64,000 nt of DNA from Eledone cirrhosa (Eukaryota): positions 46,376,001-46,440,000 of the forward strand of contig OZ024749.1 in assembly GCA_964016885.1 (NCBI GenBank). Reading direction: 5' to 3'. Below the pieces are notes generated by a model that ran no database searches, had not been told where the DNA came from, and was given only the letters and a program-made list of their open reading frames with translations. A program made the position numbers and the translations under genes. Shown piece after piece: positions 5,695 to 62,554 of this stretch. Positions within the stretch are counted from its first letter, which is position 1, and each line of letters opens with the position of its first letter.

Positions 5695-5986
5695 ATTTAG
5701 TAGAAATAGAAGCTTTCGCGGTATTTTTTACTAAAGAAATCTTTGCCAGATAGTGGGGTTAAAAGTCCTTTAAAAAAGAGAAAAGGATGAGAATTGACGT
5801 ACATGGAAGTCGAACCCACATCTTTGATTAAGATGTGGGTTCGACTCCCGTGTACGTCAATTCTCATCCTTTTCCATTTTTTAGAGAATTTTCAACCCCA
5901 CTATCAGGCTAAGGTTTCATTAGTCAAAAAACGACGAAAGCTTCTATTTCTAATAAATTTCAAACCACTCGCTGTGGCAATACAAA

Positions 5987-11574: not shown

Positions 11575-11736
11575 TAACGAAGGAACTGTGGTAAGGAATC
11601 GCGTGGACCACAACGCCCCAGAGTACTCAATACTTTGGGTAGTAGAGTGGGTAATAGGAAAATGTTCAAGACCCCGACGGCAGAGCTCAAGCCGTTGAAC
11701 CGGCTTGAGCTCTGCCGTCGAGATCTTGAACATCTT

Positions 11737-11740
<4 letters not shown>
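11575..11740 (-). mobile_element. Family A hairpin+tail element
   Basis: taacgaagg...tail, then arms around gaccccgacggcagagctcaagccg; flanked by TA repeats. Confidence 0.8.
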
Positions 11741-11769
<29 letters not shown>

Positions 11770-12373: not shown

Positions 12374-12551
12374 GAAAAGAGTCATGACCCCGACGGCTGA
12401 GATCCGAAGTGTTCGGATCTAGCTTTCGAAACGGCCAGAGCTCAGCCGTCGGGGTCCTGACTCTTTTCCTATTACCCACTCTACTACCACAAGTATCGAG
12501 TACTCTGGTGCGTAATGGTCCACCTGGTATCTTACCACACTTTCTTTGTTA
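12371..12551 (+). mobile_element. Family A hairpin+tail element
   Basis: taggaaaagagtca..gaccccgacggctgag / ctcagccgtcggggtcctgactcttttccta + tail; follows (TA)n. Confidence 0.8.
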
Positions 12552-13333
12552 TATTTATAAGTAAAATCCCGACCGCTGTGCCAACCGATTTTATGGTTTC
12601 AGACAACTTGTGTTCCGATTGTTTGCACAATGGAAGATCATGCATGTGAGAATAAGGTGGAAGTAGGTTAACATTCTACAGACAAGTTTAACCTTAACCT
12701 AATTGTTATTAAGTATCAGAGTATAGTGTGTGATATGGAAGAATACTTTTCTCCCATGAGTATTTACGTGAACATAAAGACAAATAGACATATATTTGAA
12801 AATTTATATCCTTACTTTATCAATACTGGAATGATGGAAGTCAAAATTGACCTTTGAATGATTTGAATTCAGTATGTAAATATTCATGACTAAATACTGC
12901 AAACAACTTTTCTTTTAACAATCTAATGGTTCTGCCAAACTAATGCCCAGAAAAGTCTCTAGAGTTGCTGATTATCTTAAGACTAAATCTCATCAATTTT
13001 GGAAGCTATTTTTAAAGCTACGTATAGAATATACAATAGGACTATGGTAGTCGTATGTTATTGTAAAACACCAATGAATCTATCAGACACTACCTATTAG
13101 CAGTACAGTAACTACAAGTATGTTTTCATAAAGATAATGGATTCAGCCACCTGTCTCAAGATATATATCAGTCGAAAATCTAATTAGAAGAAAAGACATT
13201 GACAGATCAATAAAAATGTAACAAAAATAAAAAGCTATGTAAAATAAAACAAGAACTATTAGCCAATCAAGCAAGCTATCAATCGAAGAATAATCAAACA
13301 TAACACTTTTATTAGAAACCCCCAATTACTTAC

Positions 13334-13586: not shown

Positions 13587-13678
13587 TCTAGCAAGACGAA
13601 TTCGAACCATCGACTTAAGGATGACAACTTAATATAACATACTACAGTCCGCCGCTCTACCAACTGAGCTATCGCGGG
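13587..13678 (-). pseudogene. Intron-containing tRNA-Tyr(GTA), probably a pseudogene
   Basis: CCCGCGATAGCTCAGTTGGTAGAGCGGCGGACTGTAG + 19-nt intron (13641-13623) + ATCCTTAAGTCGATGGTTCGAATTCGTCTTGCTAGA. A and B boxes are recognisable, but the acceptor and anticodon stems have mismatches. Confidence 0.85.
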
Positions 13679-16270: not shown

Positions 16271-16775
16271 ATATGGAGAAGTTTACGAAATGGAAATGCG
16301 CGTATATAGAATTTATTAGATAACAATTGTTTCTATAGTGTATGGGTTACCTATACCTCGCTATTTGAATAATATACAAATATTATCATAAACCGAAGGT
16401 ACACTGTAAGCACACACACCATGTCTTCAGAGCTTTGTATTAGAATGATATGAAAATATTTTATACACTAGATAATAGATAAAGAAGGAGGTAGGAAGAG
16501 GAGGGGAAGAGGGAAGTGAGTAAGGTGGAGGGAGTCTTAGGATTTAAGACTGTCAGACTAGTAGAGATTGTGAGGAGAGAATGTTTTGGCAGCAGTTATC
16601 ATTATTGAAACAATTGTTACCTAATAAATTCTATATACCCGCATTTCCATTTCGTAAACTTCTCCATATTTTCTCCGGATTTTAAAACACACTTTATTAT
16701 ACGTTGAGCAATCTCTGATGTCGTTTGACTCCATCCAATGCAACTACTTAGTTACATTGGAATACAAATTTACTA
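16271..16775. mobile_element. Penelope-like non-autonomous element (family D) with a long-stem-II hammerhead at 16318-16434(-)
   Basis: Inverted arms at 16271-16333 and 16607-16669 plus an unpaired tail of about 105 bp, flanked by (TA)n. The minus strand reads CTGAAGA-c atggtgt...acactat a-GAAACAATTGTT. Confidence 0.65.
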
Positions 16776-19879: not shown

Positions 19880-20488
19880 TATCTATAGCGTTGCTCAGAT
19901 CTTCAGTATTCCTCTATGAAAGTTTAATAACCTTCATCGGATATTGTGTATTCCGTTCTTGCTAGCGGTAACCGTTTCATGTTTAGAGACTTAATTTCCA
20001 TAACAGTAACAAGCAAACACACAAATATAATGGGTTTTCGTTTACCAAACGCGGACAGTTACTTTTTGCTTTTTTCGTCTATTAAGTTCTACTCACAAGT
20101 CATTGGATAACCCTATACCATAATATAATACCAGCGTAGAACGCCAGGGTATTGAACCTAGAAATATGTGATTGTGATTCGATCTTCTGTCGTCACATTC
20201 TGGTTACCCTAAATAATTGAACATATCTCCTATATTTTCAACCTAAGTTTCAAGAATTATTATATGTTATTATCAACAATGTGAAATATTAAATTTGTTT
20301 ATTCAATCAAAATATTTAAATTTATTCTCTCGTGAATCTTATTTTAATTAATCAAATAACTGAATTTAATTTATCGAATTCTCGGGTTAATGAACTTATT
20401 TTCGTAAATTTAATGATAAAGTGGGTGACTAAGTAGATACACAACGGACTTATAAAAATTAGAACGCACTAATAAAAACTATATATGT

Positions 20489-21085
20489 ATGAAAAGAGTC
20501 AGTAACCCGACGGCTGAGCTCCGGACGTTCCGACAGCTTGATCCGAGCTAAGCTAGCAGTATTAGAGCGCTAGGAATCTAGATAAGCTTATCAAGTTGAA
20601 TTGTAGGTCACCGTCTCTATAAATGTAAGATAGTTGTAAATATTTATCTCTTAACGCCTGACTGGCTTGGCAACCACAGGTCAGATTGTTCTCTTACTCT
20701 ACCCCCCCCCCCCCCCTGTTCTACTGGCCAGTTCAGCCCCCCCCCCTCACCGCCGTAATGAAGGATTTTGATAACCATGTACATGACATCCCAGATCATT
20801 GACCACTCCCTGTGAAAGAGAAGAAAAACAAATTTTTAGGATTATTTGCTTTGATATTTCTGCTGTTTGTTTTATCTGAATGCCTATATAGGGACTGTGC
20901 CCCTTGATAAGTTCAGTTACATTCCAGCCGTTCTAATACTGTTGGTTTAGTTCGGATACAGCTGTCAAAACGTCCGGAGCTCAGCCGTCGGGGTCCTGAC
21001 TCTTTTCCTATTACCCACTCTACTACCCCAAGTATCGAGTACTATGGTGCGTTATGGTCCACGTGGTATCTTACCACACCTTCTT

Positions 21086-21089
<4 letters not shown>
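20489..21089 (+). mobile_element. Longest family A Penelope-like element; U3-A8 hammerhead remnant at about 20899-20995
   Basis: Inverted arms of about 105 bp plus an 80-bp tail ending in (TA)n. Reads gcccc-TTGATAA-long stem II-(G)AAAC..GTC-ggggt; the GAAA is mutated in this copy but intact in others. Confidence 0.7.
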
Positions 21090-25384: not shown

Positions 25385-25626
25385 AAAGGTAAACAGAAAT
25401 AACAACACAATCGGTACAGTATATGGAATGGATATATTAGGTTAACGCTTGATATAGCAGGAAGAGGGTCTTAACGTTTCCGACGCTAGATAGTATATAT
25501 ATATCTATATATCTATATATATGTGAGTGTGTGTGTGTATGTATGCATGTATTAAATTACCCTAAGTGTTTGACGAAGACGTATTTGATTTATTAAAGAA
25601 TTATGAATTATAAAATGAATACGTAC

Positions 25627-25958
25627 CATTATTGTCGTAAATTGCATGTTACTTTGACCTGAACACATCCATACATCACCAAATAAAACATTAACCAATT
25701 CAATAATTGTTGTAGATAACTTGACCTTGATAACATATGGTCCACCAGCTTCCATTACAGGTAATTTTACTTTCCATACTGAAGCATTAATAGCTGGAAG
25801 TAAATAACTAGTTGTTCTTGCAGAGTAGAGTTCATTTATTTTAAGGGTGATATTTGCACCACTGTATCTTGAATATCCCCAAATTATAGCACGCCGTGGT
25901 GCCCTCTGTAGCACCATGTTGTTGCTGTAGTAACTTGCAAATTGGATATCATGGCTCC
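25627..25958 (-). CDS. SIAE: SIAE coding exon 2 (contains catalytic-Ser motif GQSN)
   Basis: tttAG acceptor; SHDIQFASYYSNNMVLQR...VLFGDVWMCSGQSNMQFTTIM; GTACGT donor. The MVLQR and GDVWxCSGQSNM motifs are diagnostic of sialate O-acetylesterases. Confidence 0.97.
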
Positions 25959-32252: not shown

Positions 32253-32298
<46 letters not shown>

Positions 32299-32376
32299 CA
32301 CATACACACATACACGCCTTTTGGGATTCTTTCTCACGTCGTGTAGACGCGTTCTTGAAGCTAGTAAAATGAGGTA

Positions 32377-32466
32377 TCCTCTTGATAAGTCGGCAGACCT
32401 CGTAAAGACTCTATATCTTTATGATGTATTGTTTTTGTTTATGCCACGAAACTACGTAGTCGAGGA
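32377..32466 (+). ncRNA. Type I hammerhead motif with U3-A8 core
   Basis: tcctc-TTGATAA-gt c ggca...tgcc ac-GAAAC TACGTA GTC-gagga: perfect stem I, palindromic stem III (ACTACGTAGT), GUC triplet. Confidence 0.8.
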
Positions 32467-32535
32467 ATCTAGGAGCAGTTTAGGTATGATACATTTTATT
32501 ACTAATTATATCTAAATGTTTCTTCTCTCTTCATA

Positions 32536-32592
<57 letters not shown>

Positions 32593-33497
32593 CACATATA
32601 CGCACATATATATATAAATTATTTTAATTAAAAAGAAAAAATATATATATATATGTCTGTGTGTGTAAAATTGCTCAGATACACCCATACAAATGTAGAC
32701 ATATATAAGATTTCATACGTTTTATTTCTCACCATTAGATAGATTTAGACACCAAAATTGGAAACTATTATTAAGTACATAGCGTAAATTAGCTAAAGCT
32801 AGACATATTGCTTTGCGGCTGACATGACCATACCCGGCCTTCCTATGTTTTCAGATAAATGGCTAGGCAAGGTGCCGAATAAGCTTATTCAAGCGAATGG
32901 GTCTGAGCAGATTTAGCAAATCACAGTCAACGGAAATGTAAGTAAATTTCTCTCTTTCTCTCATTATATATATATATATATATATTATACATAAACAATA
33001 AGAGTGGGTTGAAAGAATTTCAATAGCTTCATTAATTATTTGTCGACTTTCATAACATGATTTAATTTGAACAATATACAGTACAGTCTTAAGATTTTAC
33101 AAGAAAACTTATCTGATAATCCTGTGAGAAACAGGCGAAACTCCATTGTAACAATATTCATAGAGTAGTCTTGATAAAAATGAATATATGTGTAAACTCG
33201 CATACCTCAGGACATGTCGATTAAGAGTCGGGATCCGATCACTTGATCAAACCCGAGATGATCTATTCATATATATATATCTGCATATTACAGCCGCCTT
33301 AAACCAGGATCACAATCCAACGAGAGACAGGCCTCGTAACATCGTCGAGTGCTTCGAACATGTCGCCGCTAGTAACCACAAGTTACTCATATAGCAACAC
33401 ACACACGCGCACACACACACGCACACACACACACACACACGCTCGCACACACACACACACACAAACAAACACGCACACACATATATCTATATATATG

Positions 33498-46160: not shown

Positions 46161-46348
46161 AACGAGTAAGACCCCGACGTCTGAGCTCAAGCCGTTTCGA
46201 CGGCTAGTTCTGGACAGAACTAGCCGTCGAGACGGCTTGAGCTCAGCCGTCGAGGTCCTACTCGTTCCTATTACCCACTCTACTATCCTAAGTATTGAGT
46301 ATTTTGGTGCATTATGGTCCACCTGGTTCCTTACCACATTTCCTTCGT

Positions 46349-51115: not shown

Positions 51116-51309
51116 CGAAGGAAATGTGGTAAGGAACCAGGTGGACCATAACGCACCAAAGTACTCAATACTTGAGGTAGTAGAGTGGGTAATAGGAACC
51201 AGTAAGACCCCGACAGCTGAGCTCAAGCCGTTTCGACGGCTAATTCTGGACTCAGTCCAGAATTAGCCGTCGAAACGGCTTGAGCTCAGCTGTCGGGGTC
51301 TTACTGGTT

Positions 51310-51313
<4 letters not shown>
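51113..51313 (-). mobile_element. Family A hairpin+tail element (young, perfect arms)
   Basis: Perfect arms of about 60 bp centred on tggact-c-agtcca; (TA)n on both sides. Confidence 0.85.
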
Positions 51314-51396
<83 letters not shown>

Positions 51397-54532: not shown

Positions 54533-55057
54533 CGTTTCTGAATTTGTTTAGCAAGATTCTTTATCTGAAAACGTGTGTTGATACCGATATTGTTATGCTT
54601 TGGGAGGGTCATGTTGCCAATAAGAAACACAAGCACCAGTTGCTTTCACTCCAATTTATTATAAATTAAATTTATAAATTTAAGAATTTATAAATTTCCG
54701 GTTGGTTGGTTCGTTCCACAACCGGACGGTTGTTCATATATTGTCAAAGTTCTATCGTCACACATTATGTGACCTCTTCAGTGACTGGGAATTCTTTTCT
54801 TTATTCTGTCCTACGCCACAAAAACAAGATGGCGTAGGACAGAACAAAGAAAAGAATCTCCTGTCACTGAAGAGGTCACAAACTGTGCGACGAAAGAACT
54901 TTGACAATATATGAACAACCGTCCGGTTGTGGAACCAACCAATCGGAAATTTATAAATTCTTAAATTTATGAATTTAATTTATAATAAATTGGAGTGAAA
55001 GCACATGGTGCGTGTGTTTCTTATTGGCAACATGACCCTACCAAAGCATAACAATAT
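54530..55057. mobile_element. Family C palindromic Penelope-like element with hammerhead motifs (54862-54906 on +, decayed mirror on -)
   Basis: Inverted arms of about 230 bp (54587-54818 / 54830-55057) plus a 57-bp unpaired tail, between (TA)n tracts. Reads tgtca-CTGAAGA-g gtcaca..gac-GAAA g aa c TT-tgaca. Confidence 0.75.
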
Positions 55058-55837: not shown

Positions 55838-56037
55838 CGTTATTCCGGGTTGAATCGGAGGTAACCACAGTAAGTAAGGTACTCAATACATAGCAGAGTA
55901 TAAAAGTTTTAATATAGATGAGATTCTACAGGACTAGAACTGTTTCATTCTTTAGAAATCATCAGGAATCTCAGAGATTCCTGATGATTTCTAAAGAATG
56001 AAACAGTTCTAGTCCTGTAGAATCTCATCTATATTAA

Positions 56038-56041
<4 letters not shown>
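55838..56041 (-). mobile_element. Family B palindromic Penelope-like element with a hammerhead on each strand
   Basis: Perfect 68-bp inverted arms (55905-55972 / 55974-56041) plus a 67-bp tail, in (TA)n. Reads gagattc-CTGATGA-tttctaaagaat-GAAA-CAG ttctagtc CTG-TA-gaatctc. Confidence 0.8.
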
Positions 56042-61583: not shown

Positions 61584-61782
61584 TTGTGTGTGTGTGTGTA
61601 TAGATTTTTTGAGTTTTCATATTATACATATATAATGTATACATCAGCACACACACAAACATGTGTGTTTGTGTGCGTGTGTGTATGGCAGTATAACATT
61701 TTGTATTTATAAATACAACCTATAAGCTGATAATTGTTTCAACTCTTATTATACACACACCCACACATAAATAAATAAATAA

Positions 61783-61827
<45 letters not shown>

Positions 61828-61831
<4 letters not shown>

Positions 61832-61998
61832 AAAATGTATGACCCCGACGGCAGAGCTCAAGCCGTTTCGACGGCTATTTCTGGACGCTAGTATTGAATA
61901 CTCTGGTGCGGTCGGGTCCATCTGGTTCCTTACTACAACTCCTTTGTTATATATATATATATATATATATATAACGAAGGAGTTGTGGTAAGGAACCA
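61828..61998 (+). mobile_element. Deleted family A element plus inverted tail fragment
   Basis: Arm and tail sequence at 61828-61949; mirrored tail piece at 61972-61998. Confidence 0.7.
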
Positions 61999-62001
61999 TA
62001 T

Positions 62002-62036
<35 letters not shown>

Positions 62037-62554
62037 TTATTTATTTATTTATTTATTTATGTGTGGGTGTGTGTATAATAAGAGTTAAAACAATTATCAG
62101 CTTATAGGTTGTATTTATAAATACAAAATGTTATACTGCCAAACACACACACAAACACACACACACCTGTTTGTCTCTATTACTCTCTTTATTTTCTTTT
62201 TCTTTTGTATTTTACCTGGACTACCTTTTATCTTCTGTATCTATCCTTGGTGATCCTGTCTTTACTTTGGTATTCCCGAAGAAGGGCTAAATCCCAACAC
62301 GTCGAACTTTCTTTCCTCTTTTCATTGTAAAGCGTGAAACTAATACTTTTGTACCTCTGTTGGTTGGTTGTTTCCTTGAACTACAAACAAACACATATAT
62401 ATGTCTGTAAACCGTATTTCCCGGCGCTAAAGACGCACCCTAATTTTGAGAACCCAAAATTTGAAAAAAATAATAAACAACCTTCGGCCTAAAGGACGCA
62501 TGGTAGAATTTTGAGAGTTATTTTAGGAAGAAAAAAAAAAAAAAAAAATATATA

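What the first reader, a model, noticed from the sequence alone, without database searches (positions are those of the whole stretch)
32377..32466. Natural U3-A8 catalytic-core hammerhead variant, apparently intact
Seen: the core reads TTGATAA instead of CTGATGA, with a perfect 5-bp stem I, a closed stem II and a palindromic ACTACGTAGT stem III ending in GUC. Known: positions 3 and 8 form a tertiary Watson-Crick pair, so C3-G8 to U3-A8 is a compensatory change that retains activity and is uncommon in nature. Searches requiring CUGANGA would miss it. The unrelated family A shows the same TTGATAA core in both arms.
Basis: partly seen in the sequence, partly recalled or inferred. Interest (0 to 1): 0.75.

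Follow-up and report, generated by a model that had tools for sequence, protein, structure and literature searches.

The report
Variant-hammerhead retrozyme with Penelope footprints
This is one cut-short copy of a young, protein-free jumping repeat present about 7,000 times in this animal genome, in which every full unit carries a predicted self-cutting RNA with an already known base-pair swap, and whose insertion ends suggest that a Penelope-type retrotransposon likely copies it from two fixed start points.

Summary
The hammerhead fold at 32377-32466 is real, and U3-A8 is the fixed state of its family, not decay: 7,269 genome matches carry TTGANAA with this stem III, none carries CTGANGA. The variant is not new (Perreault 2011; about 1,300 copies in Schistosoma Penelope elements, Cervera 2014) and not rare here: it is the core of an autonomous Neptune-type Penelope family and of 96 of the first 100 listed of 24,058 related motifs. 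The motif lies in a 5'-truncated copy (32315-32541) of a roughly 593-bp non-coding tandem unit, a non-LTR retrozyme. In 57 unselected loci, 85 of 90 arms end at one of two fixed sites, nearly always in (AT)n; of 25 independent back-to-back pairs with both ends at fixed sites, 24 use one of each, as the autonomous family does. Units and arms of one insertion are near-identical (0.2% against 2.4% between loci), and the unit folds strongly only on the ribozyme strand: a circular RNA template is likely. Cleavage and expression are untested. The scan found this before, on this family and in other genomes.

The parts
32315..32541 (+). 5'-truncated single copy (unit positions 367-593) of the ~593-bp non-coding tandem retroelement
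   Evidence: blastn to the natural unit L029:1120-1712, 99.1% over 227 bp; 40 of 40 scored genome matches at 99-100%
32377..32466 (+). Type I hammerhead fold, from the 5' to the 3' strand of the 5-bp stem I (TCCTC/GAGGA)
32372..32376 (+). 5' strand of the stem I extension (AGGU plus bulged A), pairing with 32467-32470
   Evidence: fold; pair counts (only frequent variant is G-C to G-U)
32382..32388 (+). Catalytic core strand UUGAUAA: U3 at 32382, A8 at 32387
   Evidence: fixed in the family
32389..32447 (+). Long stem II: G10.1-C11.1, U-A, bulged C, 4 bp, internal loop, two further helices
   Evidence: 6 of 7 frequent variant states in distal stem II and the stem I extension keep the pair
32448..32451 (+). 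GAAA core strand (G12 to A15.1)
32451..32460 (+). Palindromic stem III, 3 bp plus tetraloop as monomer, 10-bp duplex as dimer
   Evidence: self-duplex -12.9 kcal/mol, hairpin alone 0.0
32461..32462 (+). Predicted cleavage site, GUC|G (unit 513|514)
   Evidence: hammerhead numbering on the sequence; not assayed
32510..32541 (+). Fixed 3' end 'site A' (pyrimidine tract, then TAATGTAT), 80 nt after the cut site; inferred start of reverse transcription
   Evidence: 46 of 90 arms end here
32539..32589 (.). (TA)n target microsatellite at the 3' junction
   Evidence: 84 of 90 arms run into (AT)n
32257..32296 (.). (TA)n tract 18 nt before the 5' junction, probably the other half of the target
   Evidence: assignment inferred

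Best explanation
The motif is the hammerhead of a young, protein-free, ~593-bp tandem retroelement (a non-LTR retrozyme) whose whole family has the U3-A8 core and which is likely mobilised by a Neptune-type Penelope-like element (PLE). Shown: the fold, the fixed U3-A8 pair, about 7,000 copies, head-to-tail arrays, two fixed 3' ends (site A, unit 593; site B, unit 158-169) joined to (AT)n, back-to-back pairs that use one end of each kind, near-identity of all units inside one insertion, and the same end rule in an autonomous RT + GIY-YIG element of this genome that has its own U3-A8 hammerhead. Inferred: arrays are transcribed; neighbouring hammerheads pair through the palindromic stem III and cut at GUC|G; the monomers are closed into a self-paired circle in which the ribozyme is folded away; a PLE protein nicks both strands of (AT)n and primes cDNA at site A on one strand and at site B on the other; reverse transcriptase runs round the template, giving 5'-truncated, more-than-unit and back-to-back insertions. 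The window copy is a 227-bp single-arm product of site A with no partner ribozyme beside it, so it is probably inert itself.
For: Core fixed: 5,985 exact U3-A8 22-mers, 12 with another base at 3, 13 with another base at 8, 0 with C3-G8; 7,269 against 0 with a looser pattern. Selection on the RNA: 3' half of the ribozyme (unit 494-518, outside the 22-mer used to pick loci) has 0.56% minor alleles, and only 3.6% of 498 other 25-nt windows are as low; 6 of 7 variant states seen in 5 or more segments keep the pair, 4 of them only on the ribozyme strand; the circular unit folds at z = -5.2 and -5.8 on the ribozyme strand, -0.1 on the other, 12 control stretches +0.7 to -2.9. No ORF over 85 codons, no tblastn match to the PLE protein. 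PLE footprint: 85 of 90 arms end at A or B, 84 of 90 run into (AT)n, 29 inverted pairs = 25 A+B, 1 A+A, 0 B+B, 3 A+other; solo arms 16 A, 14 B, 2 other; dropping one duplicated pair and the 3 with an 'other' end, 24 of 25, p = 7e-7. Autonomous family L072: RT and GIY-YIG, CX4CxxC linker (Neptune/Nematis trait per PMC8557442), U3-A8 hammerhead, ends 82 and 150 nt after its cut site, A+B in 5 of 5 loci with opposite arms, end B reads TTTCTAATATAT against TTTCTAAATATAT in the unit. One template per insertion: median difference 0.17% between tandem units (65 comparisons), 0.18% between the two arms (83), 2.4% between loci (10,184); 27 locus-private alleles shared by all overlapping segments, in 15 of 43 loci; 39 of 90 arms longer than one unit.
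Against: No cleavage or expression data. No pile-up of 5' ends at the cut site: 0 of 90 arms begin at unit 512-515 and 8 at 514-540 against 4.1 expected; genome-wide, (AT)n-joined 5' ends were 61 around the cut site against 35 in one control window (p = 0.01, but many sit at TA microhomologies). No sequence homology between the unit and any of 50 GIY-YIG loci apart from an inserted copy, so the partner is inferred from shared footprint, not descent. The nearest-neighbour model puts only about 3% of lone monomers in the active fold. 73 private alleles were in one segment only. PLE hammerheads cleave weakly in vitro (PMC4209133), 8 of 9 tested frog retrozyme dimers did not cleave (bioRxiv 2026.07.22.740005), and in the anole PLE, hammerhead mutants did not affect insertion and start sites did not differ between strands (PMC11167929). 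Homogeneous arrays could also come from uncut multimeric transcripts.
Confidence: 0.72

Rival explanations
1. Same element and same PLE carrier, but the template is an uncut linear multimeric transcript (or template jumping on one RNA); the hammerhead is kept but slow or protein-dependent, and no circle is needed.
For: No 5'-end pile-up at the cut site; arrays of up to about 5 units per arm exist as sources; in the anole PLE unprocessed RNA was the main substrate (PMC11167929).
Against: 27 locus-private alleles shared by all units of an insertion need a step that multiplies one monomer; 5' truncation would shorten arrays each generation, yet 39 of 90 arms exceed one unit; strand-specific strong fold of the closed unit and conserved ribozyme.
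Confidence: 0.2
2. The unit is the detached pseudo-LTR of a coding PLE family that I did not sample; the arrays are truncated products of that element.
For: Frog retrozymes are homologous to PLE pseudo-LTRs (bioRxiv 2026.07.22.740005); only 50 of 150 scored (10,597 candidate) GIY-YIG places were examined.
Against: In 100 family loci no PLE protein match flanks the unit; the unit joins only to itself or to (AT)n; the head-to-tail joint is in all four sequencing runs laid.
Confidence: 0.06
3. Decayed or chance motif: U3-A8 arose by mutation of a CTGATGA ribozyme in this copy, or the pattern is accidental.
For: None found.
Against: 0 C3-G8 among 6,010 and among 7,269 matches; 0 descriptor hits in 30 shuffles; copies only 84% like the reference keep the 3' half of the ribozyme.
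Confidence: 0.01

Closest known systems
U3-A8 minimal hammerheads of Schistosoma mansoni Cercyon PLEs (Cervera and de la Pena 2014, PMC4209133; parts 1-2 of 4 read) and natural U3-A8 cores (Perreault et al. 2011, PMC3088659; passages read)
   Same: Same compensatory swap at positions 3 and 8, type I topology, short stem I, G10.1-C11.1, palindromic stem III, link to PLEs.
   Different: Here stem II is 59 nt with further helices, stem III can form 3 bp, the motif sits in a non-coding tandem unit, and it is almost invariant over about 7,000 copies, whereas the Schistosoma motifs were heterogeneous and mostly single.
Animal non-LTR retrozymes (Cervera and de la Pena 2020, PMC7229834, parts 2-3 of 6 read; Li et al. 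2026, bioRxiv 10.64898/2026.07.22.740005, parts 1-3 of 5 read)
   Same: Non-coding head-to-tail repeats with one type I hammerhead per unit, thousands of copies, highly self-paired predicted circle, co-existence with PLEs and proposed mobilisation by them.
   Different: Unit of 591-595 bp is above the 150-450 bp of the 2020 paper (inside the 51-972 bp of the preprint); core is U3-A8; insertions are dispersed, short, target (AT)n and show PLE-type inverted arms and two fixed ends, which the parts I read do not report for retrozymes; circRNA not shown here.
Penelope-like elements, Neptune type (Craig et al. 2021, PMC8557442, passages read; Frangieh et al. 2024, PMC11167929, parts 1-2 of 4 read)
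   Same: 5' truncation, partial tandems, inverted 5' copy, a 'tail' at only one end, microsatellite targets, two start sites of reverse transcription, hammerhead near the end.
   Different: No RT or endonuclease; the tail is 162 nt (68 nt in the autonomous family here) against 30-40 bp in print; the one-site-per-arm rule is near-absolute here, while the anole enzyme in vitro showed no difference in start site between strands.

Membership tests
Type I hammerhead ribozyme | Core CUGANGA...GAAA...NUH with a 3-8 base pair | tested here: met
   UUGAUAA, GAAA, GUC; U3-A8 keeps the pair; across families C3 goes with G8 and U3 with A8 (96 U-A, 3 C-G, 1 U-G of the first 100 rows, counted by eye)
Type I hammerhead ribozyme | Three helices round the core, open end in stem I | tested here: met
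   active fold is 1.1 kcal/mol above the lowest-energy fold
Type I hammerhead ribozyme | Tertiary contact between stems I and II | not tested
   a bulge in stem I and an internal loop in stem II exist; no model was built
Type I hammerhead ribozyme | Site-specific self-cleavage | not testable with these tools
   no assay; the indirect genomic test (5' ends at the cut site) was inconclusive
Animal non-LTR retrozyme | Head-to-tail repeats with a type I hammerhead in each unit | tested here: met
   arrays of 591-595 bp spacing, up to about 5 units per arm
Animal non-LTR retrozyme | No protein coding | tested here: met
   longest stop-free frame 85 codons; no PLE protein match
Animal non-LTR retrozyme | Highly self-paired predicted circle | tested here: met
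   63% paired, z = -5.3 on 40 shuffles; reverse strand -0.1
Animal non-LTR retrozyme | Expressed as linear and circular RNA | not testable with these tools
   no RNA run was listed
Animal non-LTR retrozyme | Target-site duplication longer than 4 bp when present | tested here: inconclusive
   junctions lie in (AT)n, where a duplication cannot be read
Non-autonomous Penelope-like element | 5' truncation, partial tandems, inverted 5' copy, tail at one end | tested here: met
Non-autonomous Penelope-like element | Microsatellite target shared with an autonomous PLE of the same genome | tested here: met
   84 of 90 arms at (AT)n; the L072 family ends at (AT)n too
Non-autonomous Penelope-like element | Sequence homology to the pseudo-LTR of an autonomous PLE | tested here: inconclusive
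   none against 50 GIY-YIG loci, a small part of 10,597 candidates; only a 12-nt end motif and the 80-82 nt spacing are shared
Autonomous Penelope-like element | RT plus GIY-YIG ORF | tested here: not met
   absent from the unit, from the window and from 100 family loci

The most novel reading that the evidence does not exclude
Each insertion is made on one circular retrozyme RNA by a two-headed Penelope complex that assigns a different fixed start site to each DNA strand (site A for one, site B for the other). This would explain the one-sided PLE 'tail' and the inverted arms by a single rule, give direct genomic proof that PLEs retrotranspose ribozyme-made circles, and make this genome a case where a whole PLE lineage and its parasites (tens of thousands of copies) run on the U3-A8 core.
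Probability: 0.45. Interest if true: 0.65.

Novelty: new member of a known kind. Interest (0 to 1): 0.36.

Why it matters
The base swap itself is old news, but its abundance is a practical warning: a CUGANGA-only search would miss some 7,000 copies of this family and most of about 24,000 related motifs in one genome. The element matters more: how animal retrozymes are moved, and why Penelope insertions have a tail at one end and an inverted arm, are open questions, and thousands of young, 593-bp copies with two fixed ends give a large natural data set and a short RNA substrate for an in vitro test.

Tried and rejected
Rfam: no hammerhead among the 150 of 182 listed window matches and 0 matches on the locus. 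The repeat finder was swamped by microsatellites. RNA evidence: no RNA holder listed, no conclusion drawn. Laying four runs of unrecorded kind showed no listed change in the core and the head-to-tail joint in all four, but organisms B and C have depth 3-8 only, so I do not claim presence in other species or horizontal transfer. 5'-end pile-up at the cut site looked strong in the first 30 loci, which were picked by similarity; it did not hold in 57 unselected loci and was weak genome-wide. The zero variation of the 5' core is an artefact of picking loci by that 22-mer and is not used. Classical L1 twin priming on one linear RNA was rejected because the two arms overlap in unit coordinates and both end at fixed sites. 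Search for a homologous autonomous element in 50 GIY-YIG loci found none. The first folding constraint was off by one and was redone. Przybilski and Hammann 2007 and Lunse et al. 2017 were not held; activity of U3-A8 rests on the citation in PMC3088659. PMC2920678 passages added nothing. The organism was not identified.

Full report
Observation. The window reads TCCTC TTGATAA, a 59-nt stem II region, GAAA CTACGTAG TC GAGGA at 32377-32466. A three-stem descriptor found only this site in the 64 kb and nothing in 30 of 30 shuffled windows. Stem I extends to 9 bp past a bulge. In the lowest-energy fold GAAA is tied up in a rival hairpin; the active fold lies 1.1 kcal/mol higher and holds about 3% of the ensemble, while two stem III palindromes pair at -12.9 kcal/mol. 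That is the profile of a hammerhead that works better as a dimer (PMC4209133). Rfam does not detect it.

Is U3-A8 decay? No. The genome (G000, 3.0 Gb) has 5,985 exact copies of the 22-mer round the core, 12 with another base at position 3 and 13 with another base at position 8; none of the 6,010 has C3-G8. A looser pattern anchored on stem III gives 7,269 U3-A8 matches (reversed control 1) and 0 C3-G8. The rare exceptions are single changes at about 0.2% per site, as expected after insertion.

Is it rare or new? No. Perreault et al. 2011 report natural U3-A8 cores and cite earlier proof of activity in vitro (PMC3088659, passages); Cervera and de la Pena 2014 found about 1,300 in Schistosoma Penelope-like elements (PMC4209133). 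In this genome 14 of 20 descriptor hits in 50 GIY-YIG loci are U3-A8 (9 from one autonomous family, 2 from this family, 3 others), 5 are C3-G8 and 1 is A-U. A pattern for hammerheads with an ACCGGT stem III gives 24,058 matches against 298 for the reversed control; of the first 100 rows, all from the start of contig C1 and dominated by one family, I counted 96 U3-A8, 3 C3-G8, 1 U3-G8.

The carrier. The motif lies in a 227-bp copy (32315-32541) of a unit of about 593 bp that occurs head to tail, has no frame over 85 codons and no match to the PLE protein. I fetched 57 loci in order of position along C1, chosen only for holding the 22-mer (three further loci, L148-L150, were picked for their 5' ends and left out of all counts). 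Their 90 arms end at unit 593 (site A, 46), at 158-169 (site B, 39) or elsewhere (5); 84 run into (AT)n. 29 back-to-back pairs are 25 A+B, 1 A+A, 0 B+B and 3 A+other, while solo arms are 16 A, 14 B and 2 other. Without one duplicated pair and the 3 with an 'other' end, 24 of 25 are A+B (p = 7e-7 against independent choice). Tandem units differ by a median 0.17%, the two arms of a locus by 0.18%, different loci by 2.4%. 27 alleles private to a locus are shared by all its overlapping segments (15 of 43 loci), 73 are in one segment, 7 in some. So each insertion was copied from one template, often more than once round: 39 of 90 arms exceed one unit.

Selection on the RNA. The 3' half of the ribozyme, which was not used to pick loci, has 0.56% minor alleles against a median 2.2% for 498 other windows, 3.6% of which are as low. 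Of 7 variant states seen five or more times in distal stem II and the stem I extension, 6 keep the pair through G-U, 4 of them only on this strand; the pairs come from the fold of one member, so the count leans that way. A subfamily changes the bulged C of stem II to T (rows). The closed unit folds at z = -5.2 to -5.8 on the ribozyme strand, -0.1 on the other, with 12 control stretches between +0.7 and -2.9, and the ribozyme is not formed in the lowest-energy circle.

The likely mover. A GIY-YIG search gave 150 scored places. L072 is a 5.0-kb pLTR-ORF-pLTR element with RT and GIY-YIG and a CX4CxxC linker, a Neptune/Nematis trait (PMC8557442). It has its own U3-A8 minimal hammerhead, two ends at (AT)n 82 and 150 nt after the cut site, and A+B in 5 of 5 loci with opposite arms. 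The unit's site A is 80 nt after its cut site, and the two site B motifs differ by one letter. There is no other sequence similarity, so the partnership is inferred from the footprint. A tail at one end only, and two start sites of reverse transcription, are known PLE traits (PMC8557442; PMC11167929), and the 2026 preprint argues that animal retrozymes are non-autonomous PLE derivatives.

Mechanism, shown and inferred. Shown: fold, fixed core, copy number, arrays, ends, targets, single-template identity. Inferred: transcription, dimer cleavage, circularisation, two-site priming by a PLE protein. Against: no pile-up of 5' ends at the cut site (0 of 90 at unit 512-515; 61 against 35 genome-wide with microhomology confounds); weak or absent cleavage of many related motifs in print; hammerhead mutants did not stop insertion by the anole enzyme in vitro. 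The window copy is alone and truncated. The nearest gene piece I found, a sialic acid acetylesterase exon at about 25620-25950, is on the opposite strand, so the ribozyme would not cut that transcript even if the copy lies in an intron.

Literature limits. Five searches found no paper on this family or on a one-site-per-arm count, but subscription papers are not searched, two key papers were not held, and I opened no supplements; the supplementary figures of PMC4209133 and PMC7229834 may list more U3-A8 or mollusc motifs. An octopus repeat annotation (PMC13282606, passages) has no mention of hammerheads or retrozymes; the window's organism was not identified. Earlier notes of this scan, looked up after the analysis, reach the same reading for what appears to be this family and for retrozymes of other genomes; they are not independent support.

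Verdict. Real and family-wide, a new member of a known kind with a known core variant. Interest 0.36; the strict A+B rule on a single template is the part worth testing.

Noticed in passing
window 20488-20595 (-) and 20903-21089 (+); fragments at 11654-11741, 12388-12559, 17025, 46172-46255, 51192-51314, 61843, 62672: Family A: an older (about 88% alike) repeat with a U3-A8 type I hammerhead, 4-bp stem I, 56-nt stem II and a long stem III with a GAGCTC palindromic loop; also ends in (AT)n and forms inverted pairs; 1,838 candidates in the genome.
   Followed up: partly
L072 (G000:C1:145867500-145877400) and L073, L076, L079, L080, L082, L090: Young autonomous Neptune-type Penelope family (copies 95-98% alike, ~5.0 kb, RT + GIY-YIG) with a U3-A8 minimal hammerhead and the same two-end rule; its hammerhead dominates the 24,058 matches.
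   Followed up: partly
window 54587-55057, 55905-56041, 7468 (-): Inverted pairs of short repeats with canonical cores: CTGAAGA hammerhead at 54867 (stem I TGTCA/TGACA) and a CTGATGA...GAAA motif at 55965/55981 and 7468 whose stem I was not found by my descriptor.
   Followed up: no
L081:8168-9653: Four tandem copies, about 490-510 bp apart, of a canonical C3-G8 hammerhead with a 7-bp stem I, downstream of a PLE frame; possibly another retrozyme family.
   Followed up: no
window 25620-25950 (-): Exon of a sialic acid acetylesterase-like gene (E = 1.6e-18 to PDB 8f9q); other exons not mapped.
   Followed up: partly
window 5695-5958, 61686-62141, 16275-16665: Further inverted-repeat insertions next to (AT)n, of unexamined families.
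   Followed up: no
window 13587-13678 (-): Rfam tRNA match above the gathering score (35 bits), probably a tRNA-derived SINE head.
   Followed up: no
window 32297-32314 and 32590-32610: An imperfect CCCACATA..CACATA stretch follows the (TA)n on both sides of the copy; may be a decayed target-site duplication.
   Followed up: no
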